A stretch of 64,000 nt of DNA from the NCBI RefSeq assembly GCF_024223415.1, contig NZ_CP100500.1, one strand, 5' to 3'. Source of the stretch: Escherichia coli. Lineage in GTDB: Bacteria > Pseudomonadota > Gammaproteobacteria > Enterobacterales > Enterobacteriaceae. This document shows positions 39,110-44,703 of this stretch, in pieces; position 1 is the stretch's first letter, and each line of letters starts with the position of its first letter. Position numbers and translations under genes: made by a program. The notes beneath the pieces were generated by a model. That model saw only the letters and a list, made by a program, of their open reading frames with translations, had not been told where the DNA came from and made no database searches.

Positions 39110-39937
39110 TTATTTAACCTGGATAAATGGTGTATTAGCACCGCTGGTCATGTATTGCGGCAGTGTGCCGTTCCATTTATTGATGGCTTCCAGCTCCATA
39201 ACGCCGGGGTTCTGACGCAGAGCTTCACCGCGTAAACGAATAGCATCAGCTTCGGCCTGGGCTTTTGTGCGAATCGCATCAGCCTGTCCGGCAGCTTCTG
39301 CGCGCAACATATTGGCTTCCGCTTCGCGCTGTTTTACTTCCTGCTCGCGCTGCAGTGTTTTCTGGTTCGCCGTGACTTTGGCATTAATGCTGTCGATAAC
39401 TGTTGGCGGGTACTCCGGCTTACCCACATATGAGAGGCTCATTACCTGAATACCGATAGGTGTCATCTCTGCCTGAATGTCTTTAAGAGCTTCATCCAGC
39501 AGCTCAGACTTGCCGCCGTCGATAAATTTGTCAGTGGTCATTTTGCTGGCCAGTCGGTTGAGTGCGTCGGCGATCTTCTGGCGCAGGTCAGTGTCGGTAA
39601 TGTCATCCACGCCTTTGCGGTAGGTCTGAAACACCGTGGTAACTTTGGATGGATCAACTTTGTAGGCCACGCCAATGTGATAGCCGATGGTTGTACCGTC
39701 ACTCATCTGGAAACTGAACGGTTCATCGTAGGTCTTCATTTGTTTGAAGGTGGGGAAGATATAAACTTCAGTATTCCAGCCAGTCCAGTAGCGACCAACA
39801 CCGACCACCTCACCGACGCCTTTGTCGTCGCCCAGTTTATTTACCTTGATGCCAACATTACCTGGTTCAACGCGATCGCAACCGACAAGGCCAATAGTCG
39901 GCAGAACAATGGCTAAAGCAAAAATAATTTTTTTCAT
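39110..39937 (-). CDS. SPFH/band-7 (stomatin/prohibitin/HflKC-like) lipoprotein, 275 aa
   Basis: Product is MKKIIFALAIVLPTIGLVGC (lipobox) followed by an SPFH-like core and a coiled-coil tail QREQEVKQREAEANMLRAEAAGQADAIRTKAQAEADAIRLRGEALRQNPG typical of HflK/HflC/QmcA. Confidence 0.6.
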   Translation of the reverse strand: MKKIIFALAIVLPTIGLVGCDRVEPGNVGIKVNKLGDDKGVGEVVGVGRYWTGWNTEVYIFPTFKQMKTYDEPFSFQMSDGTTIGYHIGVAYKVDPSKVTTVFQTYRKGVDDITDTDLRQKIADALNRLASKMTTDKFIDGGKSELLDEALKDIQAEMTPIGIQVMSLSYVGKPEYPPTVIDSINAKVTANQKTLQREQEVKQREAEANMLRAEAAGQADAIRTKAQAEADAIRLRGEALRQNPGVMELEAINKWNGTLPQYMTSGANTPFIQVK

Positions 39938-40122
39938 CTTTTATCCTTAGTGAAAGAAAGACCCTTGTAAATGGCATAAATGCAGGGCGGGGTCAGAAAC
40001 GCCAGTGCAAAGCCAGAAATAACTGCTATCGTATCCTTCATGGATATAAGGAACGGAACGAGTAATCCGTAAATGCATGCGATAATTGCCAGTAAAATTA
40101 CTATTGTGAAATACAGTCTCAT
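39934..40122 (-). CDS. small two-TM membrane protein (62 aa), translationally coupled to the SPFH gene (NfeD-like partner position)
   Basis: Product is MRLYFTIVILLAIIACIYGLLVPFLISMKDTIAVISGFALAFLTPPCIYAIYKGLSFTKDKR. It overlaps the SPFH start by 4 bp. Confidence 0.5.
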   Translation of the reverse strand: MRLYFTIVILLAIIACIYGLLVPFLISMKDTIAVISGFALAFLTPPCIYAIYKGLSFTKDKR

Positions 40123-40145
40123 TGGTCTGTGGTATCCCGATATTT

Positions 40146-40253
40146 TTAACCGACTGACAGCGCAATAAAGAGAATAATGATTTCTGTTAGTGTCAGCACT
40201 GTGGCAAGGATTAAAATCAGTTTTACTCTGTTTAATTCACGGTTGCTTTTCAT
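40146..40253 (-). CDS. 35-aa hydrophobic peptide (possible small membrane-toxin-like protein), not in ORF track
   Basis: Hand translation gives MKSNRELNRVKLILILATVLTLTEIIILFIALSVG followed by TAA. It has a single predicted TM helix and a short polar N-terminus. Confidence 0.3.
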   Translation of the reverse strand: MKSNRELNRVKLILILATVLTLTEIIILFIALSVG

Positions 40254-40298
40254 ATAAACGGTTAGTAAAAAACGGAAGAATTATTTTCTTCTTAATAT

Positions 40299-40880
40299 TT
40301 AATGTGTCACTGGCGCTTCTGGCATACCATGAGTATTCAGGTCGTGAATCATTTCATCCAGAAGGAGTTCAAGCCCTTCGCGCCCCATAGCAGAGAGAAT
40401 GAAACCATTATCAGGATCTGCGATGAGCATTTTTTGATAGAGAAACAGAACTCGCCCCATGCCTTCAGTTTCGCCATATTTTTCAATAAATCCCCATTCG
40501 ACATGGTTTTGCAGGGCAATGCGAAGTGGTCCTGGGTATATACTTATGCAACCATGTTTCCCCTTGTAAATAACTGCGCGATCTGTCGTCCCGTTATCGT
40601 TAGGGATATCAATAGTGCCGTTCTTGTCTTCCTCTTCACTGATAAACTTCATCACATACAGCCAGCGCCACTGAGCAACCTTCAGATCGACTGAAAATCT
40701 TCCCAGCAATCCGGCATCATCAGCTTCGGCAAGACATTGCATGATTCTTAAACCGTGCCAGTATGGATTATCGAATTCGCCATCATTAAGCCGCTGTACG
40801 GCCTGAATATAATCAATGGTTGTATTACCAATTTTTATGCCATGTGGCGTTACTTCTGGTCGGAACTCTGAATGATTCAT
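40299..40880 (-). CDS. hypothetical protein (193 aa from the ATG at 40880; ORF-track frame extends to 40937)
   Basis: Product is MNHSEFRPEVTPHGIKIGNTTIDYIQAVQRLNDGEFDNPYWHGLRIMQCLAEADDAGLLGRFSVDLKVAQWRWLYVMKF... The start overlaps the stop of the upstream 67-aa ORF as ATGA. Confidence 0.55.
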   Translation of the reverse strand: MNHSEFRPEVTPHGIKIGNTTIDYIQAVQRLNDGEFDNPYWHGLRIMQCLAEADDAGLLGRFSVDLKVAQWRWLYVMKFISEEEDKNGTIDIPNDNGTTDRAVIYKGKHGCISIYPGPLRIALQNHVEWGFIEKYGETEGMGRVLFLYQKMLIADPDNGFILSAMGREGLELLLDEMIHDLNTHGMPEAPVTH

Positions 40881-41080
40881 AATATTTGCTCCTTTGCTGG
40901 TGGAATAATCGTGTAGCCAGCTCTTTTTGCCATCCACAGAAATGTATCCATGCAGCCAACGAATTCATTATCCAGCAGATGTTTTGAGTAAATTACTTCA
41001 CCATTTTCAATGGTTAGCAACACTCTTACTTTTTTATGTGTTATGTTTTGTTGTTTTTCTTCCATTGACTTATCTCCCAT
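40877..41080 (-). CDS. small hypothetical protein (67 aa) translationally coupled to the downstream 193-aa gene
   Basis: Product is MGDKSMEEKQQNITHKKVRVLLTIENGEVIYSKHLLDNEFVGCMDTFLWMAKRAGYTIIPPAKEQIL. Its stop overlaps the next start. Confidence 0.5.
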   Translation of the reverse strand: MGDKSMEEKQQNITHKKVRVLLTIENGEVIYSKHLLDNEFVGCMDTFLWMAKRAGYTIIPPAKEQIL

Positions 41081-41261
41081 ATGCTTTGCGCAAATACAGG
41101 TTGGCTATATGAAGATAAGAATCTCCATGTTGTGCAATGAGGCAGGCAGTTTTATACGATGCCTTATGTTTCAGGAAAGTCATAACATAATCTCCTGCGA
41201 ATAAAGGTTGCAACAATCCCCGGCGATAAAACCGTAATAAACATTCAGGGAATATTTATTG

Positions 41262-41627
41262 TTATTGCGCTAATTCTTTTTCGGCAGCAGATTTTGCATA
41301 TTCACATGCAAAATTCAGAATTTCGCTGCCAAGTGTTTTTGTTTCGTGATTACTGGACATATGTAATACCTGTGTTGCATGCAATAAATGATAAACATTT
41401 ACCGCAAATGAGTCCGGCTCCAGACAAATGCCTTCATAATCATCTTGTTGTGAGGTTGTTTCTGTCATTGCTCCTGAAGTGCATGCGAGCCTGTTTTTGA
41501 CAATTCTCTTTCCTCTAATCACTATATCGGCAACATCTATTGCCTTTACAACCTCCGGGAGAAGTTCCGGGTTTGTATAATCAAAGTCATCAACATGGAG
41601 AACAGTTATGTTTTCGAACTTTTTCAT
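41262..41627 (-). CDS. hypothetical protein (121 aa); C-terminal ~57 aa paralogous to N-terminus of the adjacent 182-aa HTH protein
   Basis: Product is MKKFENITVLHVDDFDYTNPELLPEVVKAIDVADIVIRGKRIVKNRLACTSGAMTE...GICLEPDSFAVNVYHLLHATQVLHMSSNHETKTLGSEILNFACEYAKSAAEKELAQ. Confidence 0.5.
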   Translation of the reverse strand: MKKFENITVLHVDDFDYTNPELLPEVVKAIDVADIVIRGKRIVKNRLACTSGAMTETTSQQDDYEGICLEPDSFAVNVYHLLHATQVLHMSSNHETKTLGSEILNFACEYAKSAAEKELAQ

Positions 41628-41755
41628 GGCTTCCTCAGCTGACTTATATGTTCTGCTATATAGCGAGTCTCAGAAGTGTTTTCATATTGAGACTGTTTCC
41701 GCAATGATTGATAAAAATGTTCGCATGTACCTTGAGGGGCGAAGCGGCGATTATG

Positions 41756-42304
41756 TCACCATTGGTATTGGTTCTTCCGTAGAAGAGCTTCGCGAGATAA
41801 GGAGCAAACTTGTTGAGATGCGTCATGGTGTTGCTGCTCCTCACTTTTTGGTTGCTCCGGAGGAGTAACCTCGCCAGTTAACAGCCACATCGGATCGCAG
41901 CCAAGAATATTTGCCAGTGGGGTAAGCATACTGATAGTTGGTTCATACTCTCCGCTCTCCCACTGGATGATGATTTCTTCATCGAGATCGAGCAGCCTGG
42001 CGAGTTCGGCGGTTGTTAAGCCGCAGGCTTCGCGTTGGGTGCGAAGGTTAACCAGCCAGCTTTTAGGGAAGGATTGTTTTTGTTGTGCAGGAGAAGCCGT
42101 AGATAGAGCATATTCATGGATAAATTCCATTACCTCAATGCCCAGTTCCTTTGAGCGAGCACAATCCAGAAGATGGAATGTGCGTACAGCACTTAGCAAA
42201 TTTGCAATATTTAATGCAAAGGAATCAAGTTCTAAGCCTTCAAGCGTAACACAGCCGCAGTTGATAAAATTAGTTGTTTCTGGAGTTGCTTTTAGTGTCT
42301 TCAT
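41756..42304 (-). CDS. XRE-family helix-turn-helix protein (182 aa) with an N-terminal domain of unknown function; first gene downstream of cI on the same strand
   Basis: An HTH_XRE signature LRTQREACGLTTAELARLLDLDEEIIIQWESGEYEPTISMLTPLANILGCDPMWLL sits in the C-terminal half. The N-terminal region VTLEGLELDSFALNIANLLSAVRTFHLLDCARSKELGIEVMEFIHEYALSTAS aligns with the C-terminus of the 121-aa neighbour. Confidence 0.55.
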   Translation of the reverse strand: MKTLKATPETTNFINCGCVTLEGLELDSFALNIANLLSAVRTFHLLDCARSKELGIEVMEFIHEYALSTASPAQQKQSFPKSWLVNLRTQREACGLTTAELARLLDLDEEIIIQWESGEYEPTISMLTPLANILGCDPMWLLTGEVTPPEQPKSEEQQHHDASQQVCSLSREALLRKNQYQW

Positions 42305-42449
42305 ATACCCACCAACAATTTTAAATTGAATTTAATCAAGTTATAATTGATGGTGCGATATTATGCTTTGAGAAATAGGCTGTCAAGAAAAAATTGATAC
42401 CGTGTGTTTTAGGCAGAAAAAAACGGGCAAAGCCCGTTAAAATCAAAGA

Positions 42450-43145
42450 CTAACCAAATCTGTTTATATTGAATGGTACTGATGAGATCACTTTAGACTG
42501 GATATAAAGCAGAGCTAACCCCTCTTTTTCGATGCTCCATGGTTGATAATTGGGGTTATCAGATAACACCATGATTTTGCTTCCAATTTTTTGAAGTCTT
42601 TTCACGTAGCATTCTCCATCAAAACAAAATGCATAAATGCCATCGCCATCAAAATAAGTTACTGTCTTATCAAGAAAAAGAAGGTCGCCAGGTGAGATTG
42701 TGGGAGCCATACTGTCTCCTCTGGCGTTACCTATTTCTATATTTTTGAATGCCCGATTTCCAACAAGGCGTCGGGCATATTCAGGATCAAGTTCTATTGA
42801 GCGCACTACATCTATCAAGTCACCACGGACATGAGTTCCATCACCGCAACTAAACTCAACATCAAGGACATTAAACACGACGCTATCTGTTCTTGTCTGG
42901 TGTTTCTCTTGCGAGGAAAAGGTTGGTGAGGAGTCTTCACCTAAGAACCAGGATTGTGGATAACCGCTAATCTCGGATAAATGCGCGAGCTTATCACTCC
43001 GTGGAAATGTTTTTCCTGTTGTCCAGTACTGCACTGATTGCGCACTCACACCTAACTTGCGGGCCAGTTGAGCCTGAGTCCATCCTTTTGCTTTCAGCAT
43101 CGCGGCTATTCGATTTTCCGTGTTTTTGACGTTCTTCATGACCAA
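42450..43145 (-). CDS. cI: CI-type prophage repressor (N-terminal HTH, C-terminal LexA/S24 self-cleaving peptidase domain), 231 aa
   Basis: The HTH is WTQAQLARKLGVSAQSVQYWTTGKTFP. The S24 domain has the catalytic Ser in GDSMAPTI and Lys in YVKRLQK. The gene is divergent from a cro-like gene. Confidence 0.85.
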   Translation of the reverse strand: MVMKNVKNTENRIAAMLKAKGWTQAQLARKLGVSAQSVQYWTTGKTFPRSDKLAHLSEISGYPQSWFLGEDSSPTFSSQEKHQTRTDSVVFNVLDVEFSCGDGTHVRGDLIDVVRSIELDPEYARRLVGNRAFKNIEIGNARGDSMAPTISPGDLLFLDKTVTYFDGDGIYAFCFDGECYVKRLQKIGSKIMVLSDNPNYQPWSIEKEGLALLYIQSKVISSVPFNINRFG

Positions 43146-43272
43146 ATCCTGTGGGTTTCTTTACAAGGATAAATCTTTACTTGATTTTAGTGTATTCGAT
43201 CCTTTTGCAACTTGCATGTTAATTTAAACTTGATGTATTCTTGATTCATAAAGTTAATGTTGGTGCTTTGTT
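43146..43272. promoter_or_regulatory. immunity-region operator/promoter interval (OR-like) between divergent cI and cro
   Basis: The 127-bp AT-rich divergent intergenic interval contains three CTTGAT repeats (43180, 43229, 43240) and the palindrome TGCAA-C-TTGCA (43207..43217). Confidence 0.5.
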
Positions 43273-43572
43273 ATGAAAGGAAATGATTACGATAAACTTC
43301 GTGCATTAATTGCGCAAAATGCCATAGCGCGAAATCTTGGTGTGACGCCGCAAGCGGTGAATCAGTGGTTTTCAAAAAACACAATTCCTGCTCGTTTCGT
43401 TTTACGCGTATGTGAAGTAGTTGCATGGAAGGTCACGCCACATGGCTTAAGGCCAGATCTTTATCCTCACCCTGAAGATGGAATTCCTGATTCGTTACGC
43501 AAAATTTCAAATCCAAGCTTAGCGCGCACGGAAGATGGGCAGAGTGATTCATCAGAAATGTCCACGCGATGA
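43273..43572 (+). CDS. cro: Cro/YdaS-like HTH regulator (99 aa)
   Basis: Product is MKGNDYDKLRALIAQNAIARNLGVTPQAVNQWFSKNTIPARFVLRVCEVVAWKV... It is divergent from cI. Confidence 0.7.
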   Translation: MKGNDYDKLRALIAQNAIARNLGVTPQAVNQWFSKNTIPARFVLRVCEVVAWKVTPHGLRPDLYPHPEDGIPDSLRKISNPSLARTEDGQSDSSEMSTR

Positions 43573-43648
43573 ACGGTTACTGAACGAAAAAAGAAAAGCC
43601 GGGCCGCACTCCATCAGCCCGACTTATTCTGATTAGTAAGGGGATTTC

Positions 43649-44494
43649 ATGATGATCAATAAACAAAAATTAGTCAACCCTGAAAACCTGCCAGTTATTG
43701 CTGGTGTAGAAATTTCAACTGATATGGTTGGGCGCTTTAATCTGAATGCATTGCATCGAGCCAGCGGTCTTGGCCCCAATAAAGCTCCGACGCAGTGGTT
43801 GCGTACTCAGTCAGCTAAACAACTTATTGAAGAGCTGGAAAAAGAAACTATGCAGAATTGCATAGTTTCACTGGAAGGGCGGAATGGCGGTACTTTTGCG
43901 CACGAACTGCTTGCTGTTGAATATGCAGGATGGATTTCTCCTGCGTTCCGGTTGCAGGTGAACCAGACTTTTATTGACTATCGTACTGGCAAACTTACAG
44001 CGGGCAATAATCAGTTGCCCAATTTTGACGATCCGATCGCTGCTGCTGAAGCGTGGATTGAAGCCAAAAAATCCGAACGCCTTGCTCTCGGGTATGCAGA
44101 GCGTCAGGCTCGCTACATCAGCAAACTCGAAAGCCATCTCGCCGATGGCATCACTCCTGTGCAGTTCTGCAAACAGCTCAACGGTGTAAACACTCGTCAG
44201 ATTAATGCGTTCCTTGAAGAGCGTAACTGGCTGTATGACGACCGTCCGGAGGCTATGTATCCGCGCTGGCGTGTAAAAGCGTATGCACGTGACCAATACC
44301 TGACTGAGCGTTCTGGGCAGGTTGAGCAGGAAAACGGGGAAATGCGCGAGATTTTCAAACCACTCCTGAAGAAAAAAGGTGCCGCCTGGTTATATCGCCA
44401 TTATCTGAACGGCGAACTACCGATGAAGAAAACATGGGATGGGCTGTTTACCCATAACACTGAGCTCGCGAATCTTTTACAGGAGAGCAAATGA
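43649..44494 (+). CDS. KilA-N domain / antirepressor-like protein (281 aa)
   Basis: An N-terminal KilA-N-like segment (ISTDMVGRFNLNALHRASGLGPNKAPTQWLRTQSAKQLIEELE...GGTFAHELLAVEYAGWISPAF) is followed by a phage antirepressor-like C-terminal region. Confidence 0.6.
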   Translation: MMINKQKLVNPENLPVIAGVEISTDMVGRFNLNALHRASGLGPNKAPTQWLRTQSAKQLIEELEKETMQNCIVSLEGRNGGTFAHELLAVEYAGWISPAFRLQVNQTFIDYRTGKLTAGNNQLPNFDDPIAAAEAWIEAKKSERLALGYAERQARYISKLESHLADGITPVQFCKQLNGVNTRQINAFLEERNWLYDDRPEAMYPRWRVKAYARDQYLTERSGQVEQENGEMREIFKPLLKKKGAAWLYRHYLNGELPMKKTWDGLFTHNTELANLLQESK

Positions 44495-44703
44495 TGCAAA
44501 CCAAGACATGTGTAACTGGTGATGTCGATCTGAAACCTTGCCCGTTCTGCGGAAATCCGGAAGTACAACTCATTGAGGTGAAATATTTTCTGGATGGCGA
44601 TGATGGTTATTACGTCGCATGTACTTGCTGTAACGCAAACCAGATTCCTGATTCGAAAGAACGTGCTGTTCATGACTGGAACCAGCGCGAAAACGCGGAT
44701 TGA
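44491..44703 (+). CDS. Lar-family restriction alleviation protein (70 aa, Cys-rich)
   Basis: Product is MMQTKTCVTGDVDLKPCPFCGNPEVQLIEVKYFLDGDDGYYVACTCCNANQIP... with the paired CxxC arrangement typical of Lar/RalR-like proteins. Confidence 0.6.
   Translation: MMQTKTCVTGDVDLKPCPFCGNPEVQLIEVKYFLDGDDGYYVACTCCNANQIPDSKERAVHDWNQRENAD

What the first reader, a model, noticed from the sequence alone, without database searches (positions are those of the whole stretch)
41262..42304. Two adjacent cI-downstream genes share a paralogous ~57-aa domain; the larger one appends an XRE helix-turn-helix
The 121-aa protein ends ...GICLEPDSFAVNVYHLLHATQVLHMSSNHETKTLGSEILNFACEYAKSAAEKELAQ. The 182-aa protein begins ...VTLEGLELDSFALNIANLLSAVRTFHLLDCARSKELGIEVMEFIHEYALSTASPAQQ. 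Shared positions are LE.DSFA.N...LL.A......H......K.LG.E...F..EYA.S.A. The 182-aa protein continues into a canonical HTH_XRE segment. A sensor-like domain duplicated between a standalone protein and a DNA-binding protein is reminiscent of regulator/anti-regulator or sensor/effector pairs. The shared domain matched no family I recognise.
Basis: seen in the sequence. Interest (0 to 1): 0.65.

Follow-up and report, generated by a model that had tools for sequence, protein, structure and literature searches.

The report
Shared helical hairpin in early prophage genes
Two early genes of an E. coli lambda-like prophage share a previously undescribed two-helix domain, in one of them fused to a DNA-binding module, which suggests a regulator and small-partner pair whose function is still untested.

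Summary
The C-terminal ~58 aa of the 121-aa protein and aa ~20-75 of the 182-aa protein are paralogous: 21/47 identical, E=4e-10, z=15 against shuffles. AlphaFold2 predicts both as a confident two-helix hairpin. The 182-aa protein continues into a canonical XRE HTH.

Three corrections apply:
- The genes are not cI-operon passengers. A terminator follows cI. The 182-aa gene then has its own strong promoter, overlapped by operator-like sites found elsewhere in the window only between cI and cro. It is therefore probably the first gene of a cI-repressed early-left (pL-type) operon.
- The two genes are separated by a real, oppositely oriented 86-aa gene. The last 37 aa of the 182-aa protein are unconstrained read-through antisense to it.
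- This pairing is one mosaic combination among several.

The hairpin defines a small, uncharacterised family restricted to lambdoid prophages of Enterobacteriaceae. It has no Pfam, NCBIfam or PDB match. It occurs stand-alone, in tandem, behind a conserved N-extension (the 121-aa form), or fused in front of 1-3 HTHs.

Every fusion locus examined has a small paralogue downstream. The converse does not hold.

The best model is a SinR/SinI-like hairpin-mediated hetero-oligomer, but it is untested (~0.35).

The parts
42450..43145 (-). cI-like repressor (HTH + Peptidase_S24), 231 aa from a TTG start. RefSeq calls it 229 aa.
   Evidence: Pfam Peptidase_S24 E=4e-17 and HTH_3 E=5e-8. PHROG phrog_4 repressor.
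43172..43245 (+). Three operator-like sites (RATNNNNNCTTGAY) in the cI-cro intergenic region: 43172-43185, 43221-43234 and 43232-43245.
   Evidence: the 64-kb window holds only 5 matches, all in this region or at the 182-aa gene promoter.
42422..42438 (-). Intrinsic-terminator-like hairpin plus T-run directly after cI.
   Evidence: AACGGGCTTTGCCCGTT followed by TTTTTCTGCC.
42358..42386 (-). Sigma-70 promoter TTGACA-17-TAATAT in front of the 182-aa gene, proposed as the pL equivalent.
   Evidence: 10 of 12 consensus matches.
42335..42395 (-). Two operator-like sites of the same pattern as in the cI-cro region. 42382-42395 overlaps the -35 hexamer and 42335-42348 lies just downstream of the -10.
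   Evidence: In a heteroimmune relative (SE11) a different motif is likewise shared between its own cI-cro region and its own HTH-gene promoter.
42080..42247 (-). Hairpin domain of the 182-aa protein (aa ~20-75; helices 26-45 and 49-70).
   Evidence: Family HMM E~1e-20. AF2 pLDDT ~90. BLASTP to the 121-aa protein.
41870..42064 (-). XRE-type five-helix HTH core of the 182-aa protein (aa 81-145, ending ...CDPMWLLTG).
   Evidence: Pfam HTH_3 E=2e-10. AF2 helices 81-143. The core is conserved at DNA level among heteroimmune relatives, with mosaic breakpoints at both its ends.
41756..41869 (-). C-terminal tail of the 182-aa ORF (aa 146-182 plus stop), probably incidental read-through.
   Evidence: Relatives have short unrelated tails. 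AF2 predicts it disordered. Substitutions against phage ASU11 fall 12/27/10 by codon position in this frame but 12/10/27 in the opposite-strand frame.
41608..41868 (+). 86-aa gene on the opposite strand (phrog_6104, unknown function). It converges on the HTH gene and diverges from the 121-aa gene.
   Evidence: PHROG E=1e-49. The ORF is intact in ASU11 at 80% aa identity, with substitutions 16/11/36 by codon position. An analogous antisense ORF is present in L020.
41478..41627 (-). N-extension module of the 121-aa protein (aa 1-50; small beta/alpha unit with motif ADIVI.G..VKNR).
   Evidence: Conserved in homologues 29-66% identical overall. AF2 pLDDT 82-87.
41265..41444 (-). Hairpin domain of the 121-aa protein (aa 62-121; helices 71-89 and 94-120).
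   Evidence: Family HMM E~4e-24. AF2 pLDDT 94-98.

Best explanation
The two proteins share a ~58-aa two-helix hairpin that defines a small, undescribed family found only in lambdoid prophages of Enterobacteriaceae. Family members sit at the start of the early-left operon next to cI.

In this window the operon starts at a strong promoter that carries the same operator-like sites as the cI-cro region. Both proteins would therefore be made when cI repression is lifted or on infection.

The 182-aa protein is hairpin + linker + XRE HTH. The hairpin is its only conserved non-HTH part, so it is proposed to be the oligomerisation module that lets the HTH bind DNA as a dimer or tetramer. The 121-aa protein (N-extension + linker + hairpin) is proposed to form mixed oligomers with it through the shared hairpin and so tune or block its DNA binding. 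This is the logic of SinR/SinI and AimC/AimX.

Shown: the paralogy, the predicted fold, the domain architecture, the operon position, and the recurrence of fusion plus small-paralogue pairs.

Inferred: oligomerisation, hetero-association, the direction of the effect, and the DNA target.
For: - Paralogy: E=4e-10, z=15.
- Both copies are confident two-helix hairpins joined to the rest by disordered linkers.
- The 182-aa protein has no other candidate dimerisation region. Its tail is variable, unconstrained and disordered.
- Seven loci, representing six lineages with a hairpin-HTH fusion, were examined (window type, L006/L007, ASU11, phi467, L019/L020, L021, L023). All have a small paralogue downstream. 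In L007 the reading frames overlap by 4 nt, in L006 by about 16-19 nt, and in phi467 the genes are 1 nt apart.
- Tandem stand-alone paralogues with a 4-nt overlap also occur (L010/L011).
- Precedents for small antagonists that copy a repressor's oligomerisation helices: PMC3163267 (SinR/SinI) and bioRxiv 10.1101/2025.11.23.689978 (AimC/AimX).
- Operon position: terminator, promoter and operator-like sites.
Against: - Most family members are stand-alone, in loci with no HTH fusion at all (L008/9, L012/13, L014/15, L018). The hairpin must therefore have a function that does not need a fused partner in cis.
- In E. coli the 121-aa gene (240 genomes) is found together with the type-A fusion in only 54. 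In the loci inspected that lack it, the partner is a phiP27-type HTH protein whose N-domain is unrelated (hhalign probability 0.6%).
- The hairpin subtypes of fusion and partner match in only 4 of 6 lineages, so no partner co-variation is seen.
- Fusions with 2-3 tandem HTHs would need oligomerisation less.
- No interaction could be modelled or measured here.
Confidence: 0.35

Rival explanations
1. The hairpin is a self-sufficient effector that binds some host or phage target, for example a defence, protease, recombination or transcription factor, early in the lytic programme. Paralogues diversify through phage mosaicism. The HTH fusions are effector plus autoregulator combinations, comparable to anti-CRISPR proteins fused to or paired with Aca HTH regulators. 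On this reading the 182-aa and 121-aa proteins act in parallel, not on each other.
For: - Stand-alone forms dominate the family and occur without any HTH fusion.
- The position is the very start of an early operon.
- Diversification is strong and subtypes are mixed freely between partners.
- The same 121-aa protein is found with at least three different cI types and with an unrelated HTH N-domain.
Against: - No similarity to any known anti-defence or host-takeover protein.
- A ~55-aa hairpin alone rarely forms a stable binding module without oligomerising.
- It does not explain why every fusion locus examined also keeps a small paralogue immediately downstream.
Confidence: 0.3
2. The shared domain is an evolutionary leftover of module shuffling among mosaic prophage genes. 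The hairpin is simply a homo-oligomerisation unit reused in different proteins, and the two proteins in this window have no functional connection.
For: - Mosaic breakpoints lie exactly at the hairpin/HTH junction (window ~42046) and after ...WLLTG.
- Many alternative combinations exist.
- No subtype co-variation is seen.
Against: - Fusion plus small-paralogue co-occurrence was found in all six fusion lineages examined, with translational coupling in some.
- Two proteins that carry the same oligomerisation helices and are made from one transcript would be expected to cross-associate unless they have specifically evolved not to.
Confidence: 0.2
3. Protease-decoy logic as in lambda CII/CIII. The 182-aa protein is an unstable early regulator recognised by a host protease through its hairpin. 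The small paralogue competes for that protease and stabilises the regulator.
For: - Both are early-left products, and no cII or cIII homologue was detected among the neighbouring genes.
- PHROG and one phage record label the fusion family 'CII-like', an untested annotation.
- Sharing the recognition element would make an efficient competitor.
Against: - No homology to CII or CIII.
- It does not explain stand-alone-only loci.
- It is purely by analogy.
Confidence: 0.08
4. The similarity is chance, low complexity or generic coiled coil.
For: The domain is helical and short.
Against: - z=15-17 against shuffles and E=4e-10.
- A profile recovers a coherent family of 40 cluster representatives from 1.84 billion proteins, with no spurious coiled-coil hits.
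- Specific conserved motifs are present: F.GL.L.P, N-I, G, F/A, Y-A.
Confidence: 0.01

Closest known systems
SinR / SinI of Bacillus subtilis (PMC3163267)
   Same: - An XRE-type HTH repressor, plus a small protein encoded next to it that is homologous to the repressor's two-helix oligomerisation module.
- The shared helices form the heteromer interface, and the small protein antagonises DNA binding.
   Different: - No sequence relationship: no Pfam SinI hit and no SinR/SinI chain in the PDB profile search.
- The domain order is reversed, with the hairpin N-terminal to the HTH.
- The setting is a prophage early operon in Enterobacteriaceae.
- The small partner carries an extra N-terminal module.
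- The interaction is untested here.
AimC repressor / AimX small antirepressor of arbitrium phages (bioRxiv 10.1101/2025.11.23.689978)
   Same: A phage-encoded small helical protein proposed to block oligomerisation of a SinR-like HTH repressor.
   Different: - Those are Bacillus phages.
- The target there is the lysogeny repressor itself. Here the HTH partner is a second, early-expressed regulator, and cI is a separate S24 autoprotease-type repressor.
- No sequence homology was tested or found.
TF-smORF induction modules (PMC10432266)
   Same: A phage XRE-like transcription factor plus small protein(s) encoded beside the cI gene, forming an accessory regulatory module of the lysis-lysogeny switch.
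   Different: - In those modules the TF activates a divergently transcribed smORF that inactivates cI, and the smORF is not a paralogue of the TF.
- Here the genes are co-oriented, share a domain, and the same small protein occurs with several unrelated cI types, which argues against cI-specific targeting.
Lambda early-left (pL) operon with oL operators; CII/CIII
   Same: - Position: a promoter next to cI on the side opposite to cro, carrying the same operator type as the cI-cro region.
- Small early proteins that modulate a regulator.
   Different: - The first gene is not an N-type antiterminator.
- No homology to N, CII or CIII.
- cI binding to these sites is inferred, not shown.
phiP27 genes L08, L09, L10 (NC_003356) and PHROGs 5451, 4587, 4836
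   Same: - L08 is the same 121-aa protein.
- L10 shares the HTH core.
- The PHROG families are the same sequence families.
   Different: - phiP27 L10 has an unrelated N-domain, so the paralogous pair is absent there.
- All are annotated hypothetical or unknown. 'CII-like regulator' is an untested label.

Membership tests
XRE / HTH_3 DNA-binding proteins | Match to Pfam HTH_3 (PF01381) above the gathering score; five-helix fold | tested here: met
   41 bits against a cut-off of 23, aa 87-141. AF2 predicts five helices at 81-143.
SinR/SinI antagonist pair | The small protein is homologous to the regulator's non-HTH helical module | tested here: met
   BLASTP E=4e-10, z=15.
SinR/SinI antagonist pair | The shared module is a pair of helices | tested here: met
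   AF2: helices 71-89/94-120 (pLDDT 94-98) and 26-45/49-70 (pLDDT ~90). These are predictions, not structures.
SinR/SinI antagonist pair | Sequence homology to the SinI/SinR multimerisation domain (Pfam SinI) | tested here: not met
   No SinI hit at E<=1. The profile search of PDB sequences returns no SinR/SinI chain. Foldseek against PDB gives no match with E<0.9.
SinR/SinI antagonist pair | HTH N-terminal, oligomerisation helices C-terminal | tested here: not met
   The order is reversed: hairpin aa 20-75, HTH aa 81-145.
SinR/SinI antagonist pair | Heteromer forms and abolishes DNA binding | not testable with these tools
   No multimer prediction or experiment was available.
Lambda-type pL/oL early-left control region | Promoter beside cI carrying the same operator sequences as the cI-cro region | tested here: met
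   All 5 window matches to RATNNNNNCTTGAY lie in these two regions. The pattern was derived from these sites, so the test is partly circular. Independent support: the heteroimmune SE11 relative shares a different motif between its own two regions.
Lambda-type pL/oL early-left control region | Repressor binding and repression in the lysogen | not testable with these tools
   Needs EMSA, a reporter assay or RNA-seq.
TF-smORF modules (PMC10432266) | The TF and the small ORF are divergently transcribed, and the smORF inactivates the cognate cI | tested here: not met
   The 182-aa and 121-aa genes are on the same strand. The identical 121-aa protein occurs with different cI types. cI inactivation was not tested.
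Lambda CII / CIII | Sequence membership in the Pfam or PHROG CII or CIII families | tested here: not met
   No such Pfam hit. The only link is the label 'CII-like regulator' on phrog_4836.
Type II toxin-antitoxin or known defence system | Match of the non-HTH partner or domain to a toxin or defence family | tested here: not met
   PADLOC and NCBIfam hits are confined to the HTH. The 121-aa protein has none.

The most novel reading that the evidence does not exclude
The hairpin is a phage-specific heteromerisation code. An early XRE regulator and one or more small paralogues, some with an added N-terminal input module, would form a second switch at pL in N-less lambdoid prophages of enterobacteria. 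This switch would not depend on cI cleavage. Stand-alone hairpin proteins in other prophages would then act as dominant-negative 'poison subunits' against the hairpin-HTH regulators of co-resident or superinfecting relatives.
Probability: 0.15. Interest if true: 0.7.

Novelty: new variant of a known kind. Interest (0 to 1): 0.42.

Why it matters
The first genes behind pL in this widespread group of enterobacterial prophages are entirely uncharacterised. The group includes Stx2e phage phiP27 and its relatives, and the 121-aa gene is present in about 4% of complete E. coli genomes.

If the hairpin mediates regulator/anti-regulator pairing, it would be a SinR/SinI-type circuit inside a lambdoid early operon. 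It would also be a compact, modular protein-protein interface of possible use in synthetic biology, and a candidate determinant of induction timing in toxin-converting phages.

The work also yields practical annotation corrections:
- the 121-aa ORF is under-called as 68 aa in RefSeq;
- an antisense gene is unannotated;
- a small paralogue is missed in some genomes.

Tried and rejected
- Curated libraries (Pfam, NCBIfam, PADLOC) for both proteins: only HTH hits.
- Family profile against PDB sequences: nothing below E=0.6.
- Foldseek of the 121-aa model against PDB and BFVD: only generic helical hairpins, all E>0.05.
- Ribbon-helix-helix idea (strand plus two helices): considered and dropped. 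There are no RHH Pfam or fold hits, and the helices are too long.
- Relatedness of the phiP27-type (type B) N-domain to the hairpin family: hhalign probability 0.6%, rejected.
- Partner co-variation of hairpin subtypes: 4 matched and 2 mismatched lineages, uninformative.
- cI-specific antirepressor idea for the small protein: weakened, because the same 121-aa protein sits beside at least three cI types.
- LexA-box control of the promoter: no CTG-N10-CAG was seen on reading the promoter sequence.
- Literature search on phiP27 L10: nothing relevant.
- Rfam on 40000-44000: only a sub-threshold snoRNA chance hit.
- A conserved operator for the 182-aa protein itself: none could be identified. The promoter regions of heteroimmune relatives that share the same HTH core have no evident common motif.

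Full report
**1. The observation**

- BLASTP aligns aa 69-115 of the small protein with aa 24-70 of the large one without gaps, 21/47 identical, E=4e-10.
- The Smith-Waterman score is 97. For 3000 shuffles it is 27.6 +/- 4.5 (maximum 52), z=15. Shuffling only the two domain-bearing halves gives z=17.
- The large protein has Pfam HTH_3 at aa 87-141, 41 bits against a cut-off of 23.
- The shared region has no Pfam, NCBIfam or PADLOC match.

**2. Anatomy of the two proteins**

AlphaFold2 on family alignments gives the following.

- The 121-aa protein has a small beta/alpha N-terminal unit (aa 9-45, pLDDT 82-87), a disordered linker (aa 50-59) and a two-helix hairpin (helices 71-89 and 94-120, pLDDT 94-98).
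- The 182-aa protein has a disordered N-terminus (aa 1-23), a hairpin (helices 26-45 and 49-70, pLDDT ~90), a flexible linker, a five-helix HTH (aa 81-143) and a disordered tail (aa 150-182).

The shared element is therefore a helical hairpin preceded by a short conserved F.GL.L.P motif. It is not a sensor-sized domain.

RefSeq annotates only the last 68 aa of the small ORF (WP_000141090.1). Homologues only 29-66% identical overall keep the whole 121-aa frame and a recognisable N-extension. The full ORF is therefore most likely real. An internal start that also gives a 68-aa form cannot be excluded.

**3. What lies between and around them**

The region belongs to a phiP27-like lambdoid prophage. 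phiP27 L08 is the 121-aa protein and L10 shares the HTH core.

*An antisense gene.* A plus-strand ORF (41608-41868, 86 aa, phrog_6104 E=1e-49) lies between the two genes.

- It is intact in phage ASU11 at 80% aa identity.
- Substitutions between the two copies fall 16/11/36 on codon positions 1/2/3 of the plus frame.
- In the part that overlaps the tail of the 182-aa ORF they fall 12/10/27 in the plus frame and 12/27/10 in the minus frame.

So the plus-strand gene is the constrained one. The last 37 residues of the 182-aa protein are read-through. This fits relatives whose HTH protein ends a few residues after ...WLLTG.

*Control signals upstream.*

- cI (42450-43145) is followed by a terminator-like hairpin (42438-42422).
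- Next comes a TTGACA-17-TAATAT promoter (42386-42358).
- The pattern RATNNNNNCTTGAY occurs five times in the 64-kb window. Two copies are at this promoter, one overlapping the -35 and one just after the -10. Three copies are in the cI-cro intergenic region, in mirrored orientation.
- The pattern was read off these sites, so the count alone is partly circular.
- In the heteroimmune SE11 relative, however, a different motif (TGATAC-N5-GTWAC-like) is likewise shared between its own cI-cro region and its own HTH-gene promoter.

I therefore read the promoter as a cI-controlled pL/oL equivalent and the 182-aa gene as the first early-left gene. No N, cII or cIII homologue was found among the neighbouring genes.

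**4. The family**

*Size and forms.* A profile of the hairpin was searched against 1.84 billion cluster representatives. It finds only 40 proteins at E<1e-3.

- Most are stand-alone proteins of 60-72 aa.
- Some are 121-aa forms with the N-extension.
- Nine carry the hairpin at the N-terminus of one, two or three XRE HTH domains.

*Host range.* A word-seeded profile search gives 65 clusters. Every cluster that carries an organism name comes from Enterobacteriaceae: Escherichia, Salmonella, Klebsiella, Citrobacter, Enterobacter, Phytobacter and Superficieibacter. Where named at all they are called 'hypothetical' or 'prophage protein'.

*No known relatives.* There is no PDB sequence match and no meaningful Foldseek match in PDB or BFVD.

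*Position.* In every locus read, the gene lies directly after a cI-type HTH+S24 repressor on the same strand, with a cro/YdaS-type gene diverging on the other side.

**5. Is the pairing meaningful?**

For:

- Seven loci, representing six lineages with a hairpin-HTH fusion, were examined. All have a small paralogue downstream.
  - window type: 121-aa form
  - L006 and L007: a 69-71-aa form whose reading frame overlaps the fusion gene, by 4 nt in L007
  - ASU11: 2xHTH fusion plus 121-aa form
  - phi467: 63-aa form, genes 1 nt apart
  - L019/L020: 2xHTH fusion plus 121-aa form, again with an antisense ORF between them
  - L021: 121-aa form
  - L023: a split 121-aa gene
- Tandem stand-alone pairs also occur (L010/L011, EKP1).

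Against:

- Stand-alone members often occur with no fusion in the locus.
- In complete E. coli genomes the 121-aa gene is in 240 of 5426, the type-A hairpin segment is in 73, and both together are in 54.
- A common alternative partner is the phiP27-type HTH protein, whose N-domain is unrelated (hhalign probability 0.6%).
- Mosaic breakpoints lie exactly at the hairpin/HTH junction (window ~42046) and after WLLTG.
- Two hairpin subclades exist. Fusion and partner belong to the same subclade in 4 of 6 lineages, which shows no co-variation.

**6. Mechanism**

The most economical reading has two parts.

- The hairpin is an oligomerisation module. It is the only conserved non-HTH part of the 182-aa protein, so it probably provides the multimerisation that XRE HTH proteins normally need.
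- A co-expressed protein with the same helices would be expected to form mixed oligomers and modulate DNA binding.

This is how SinI acts on SinR (PMC3163267) and how AimX is proposed to act on AimC (bioRxiv 10.1101/2025.11.23.689978).

The family is not a member of SinR/SinI. There is no sequence or fold-search match, and the domain order is reversed.

The stand-alone-only loci are the main difficulty. They keep alive the rival that the hairpin is an autonomous effector that binds another target, with the HTH fusions being effector plus autoregulator combinations. I could not run a multimer prediction, so no step of the interaction model is shown.

Probabilities assigned:

- SinR/SinI-like interplay: 0.35
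- autonomous effector: 0.30
- no functional link: 0.20
- protease decoy: 0.08
- chance: 0.01

**7. Novelty and verdict**

The domain family is undescribed, and its position as the first gene or genes of an N-less early-left operon is consistent and uncharacterised. The likely logic is a known one. I rate it a new variant of a known kind, of moderate interest.

Noticed in passing
window 41608-41868 (+): A real 86-aa gene of unknown function (phrog_6104) lies antisense between the two genes of the finding. Its 5' end overlaps the start of the 121-aa gene by 20 nt and its 3' end overlaps the 182-aa ORF by 113 nt. It is unannotated in RefSeq genomes. Other relatives carry a different plus-strand cassette (phiP27 L09; a 75-aa ORF in L005) or none. 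Its promoter and time of expression are unknown.
   Followed up: partly
window 41262-41627 (-); RefSeq WP_000141090.1: RefSeq/PGAP annotates only the C-terminal 68 aa of the 121-aa ORF, starting at M54. Divergent homologues conserve the full 121-aa frame and its N-extension. In L006 a 71-aa paralogue overlapping the HTH gene is not annotated at all.
   Followed up: yes
window 41478-41627 (-); P0069 aa 160-185: The N-extension of the 121-aa protein (motif ..TADIVI.G..VKNR) is a conserved module of its own. A fragment of it also appears between HTH repeats in a 333-aa hairpin + 3xHTH protein.
   Followed up: partly
P0043, P0047, P0053, P0069; L016 2742-3455: Some family members carry two or three tandem XRE HTH domains behind the hairpin, which is an unusual architecture for XRE proteins.
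   Followed up: no
window 42046 and 41870 (boundaries of the HTH core): The HTH core is conserved at DNA level among heteroimmune prophages and acts as a recombination joint. The N-domain, the promoter and cI are exchanged on one side, and the tail with the antisense cassette on the other.
   Followed up: partly
L024 (OM284015.1 'Elizabethkingia phage EKP1'): This record has the same cI, 67-aa, 63-aa tandem hairpin arrangement and neighbours as the enterobacterial metagenome loci L010/L011. The Elizabethkingia host label therefore looks odd.
   Followed up: no
window 44491-44703 (+) and 39110-40122 (-): A Lar-like restriction-alleviation protein (phrog_599) lies in the early-right operon. A 62-aa membrane protein plus an SPFH lipoprotein pair lies in the early-left operon.
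   Followed up: no
window 41081-41261: A 180-nt gap inside the presumed early-left operon separates the 121-aa gene from the next gene (67 aa, phrog_340). It is conserved in nearly all E. coli relatives and may hold a regulatory site or a small ORF (a 48-aa ORF at 41070-41216).
   Followed up: no
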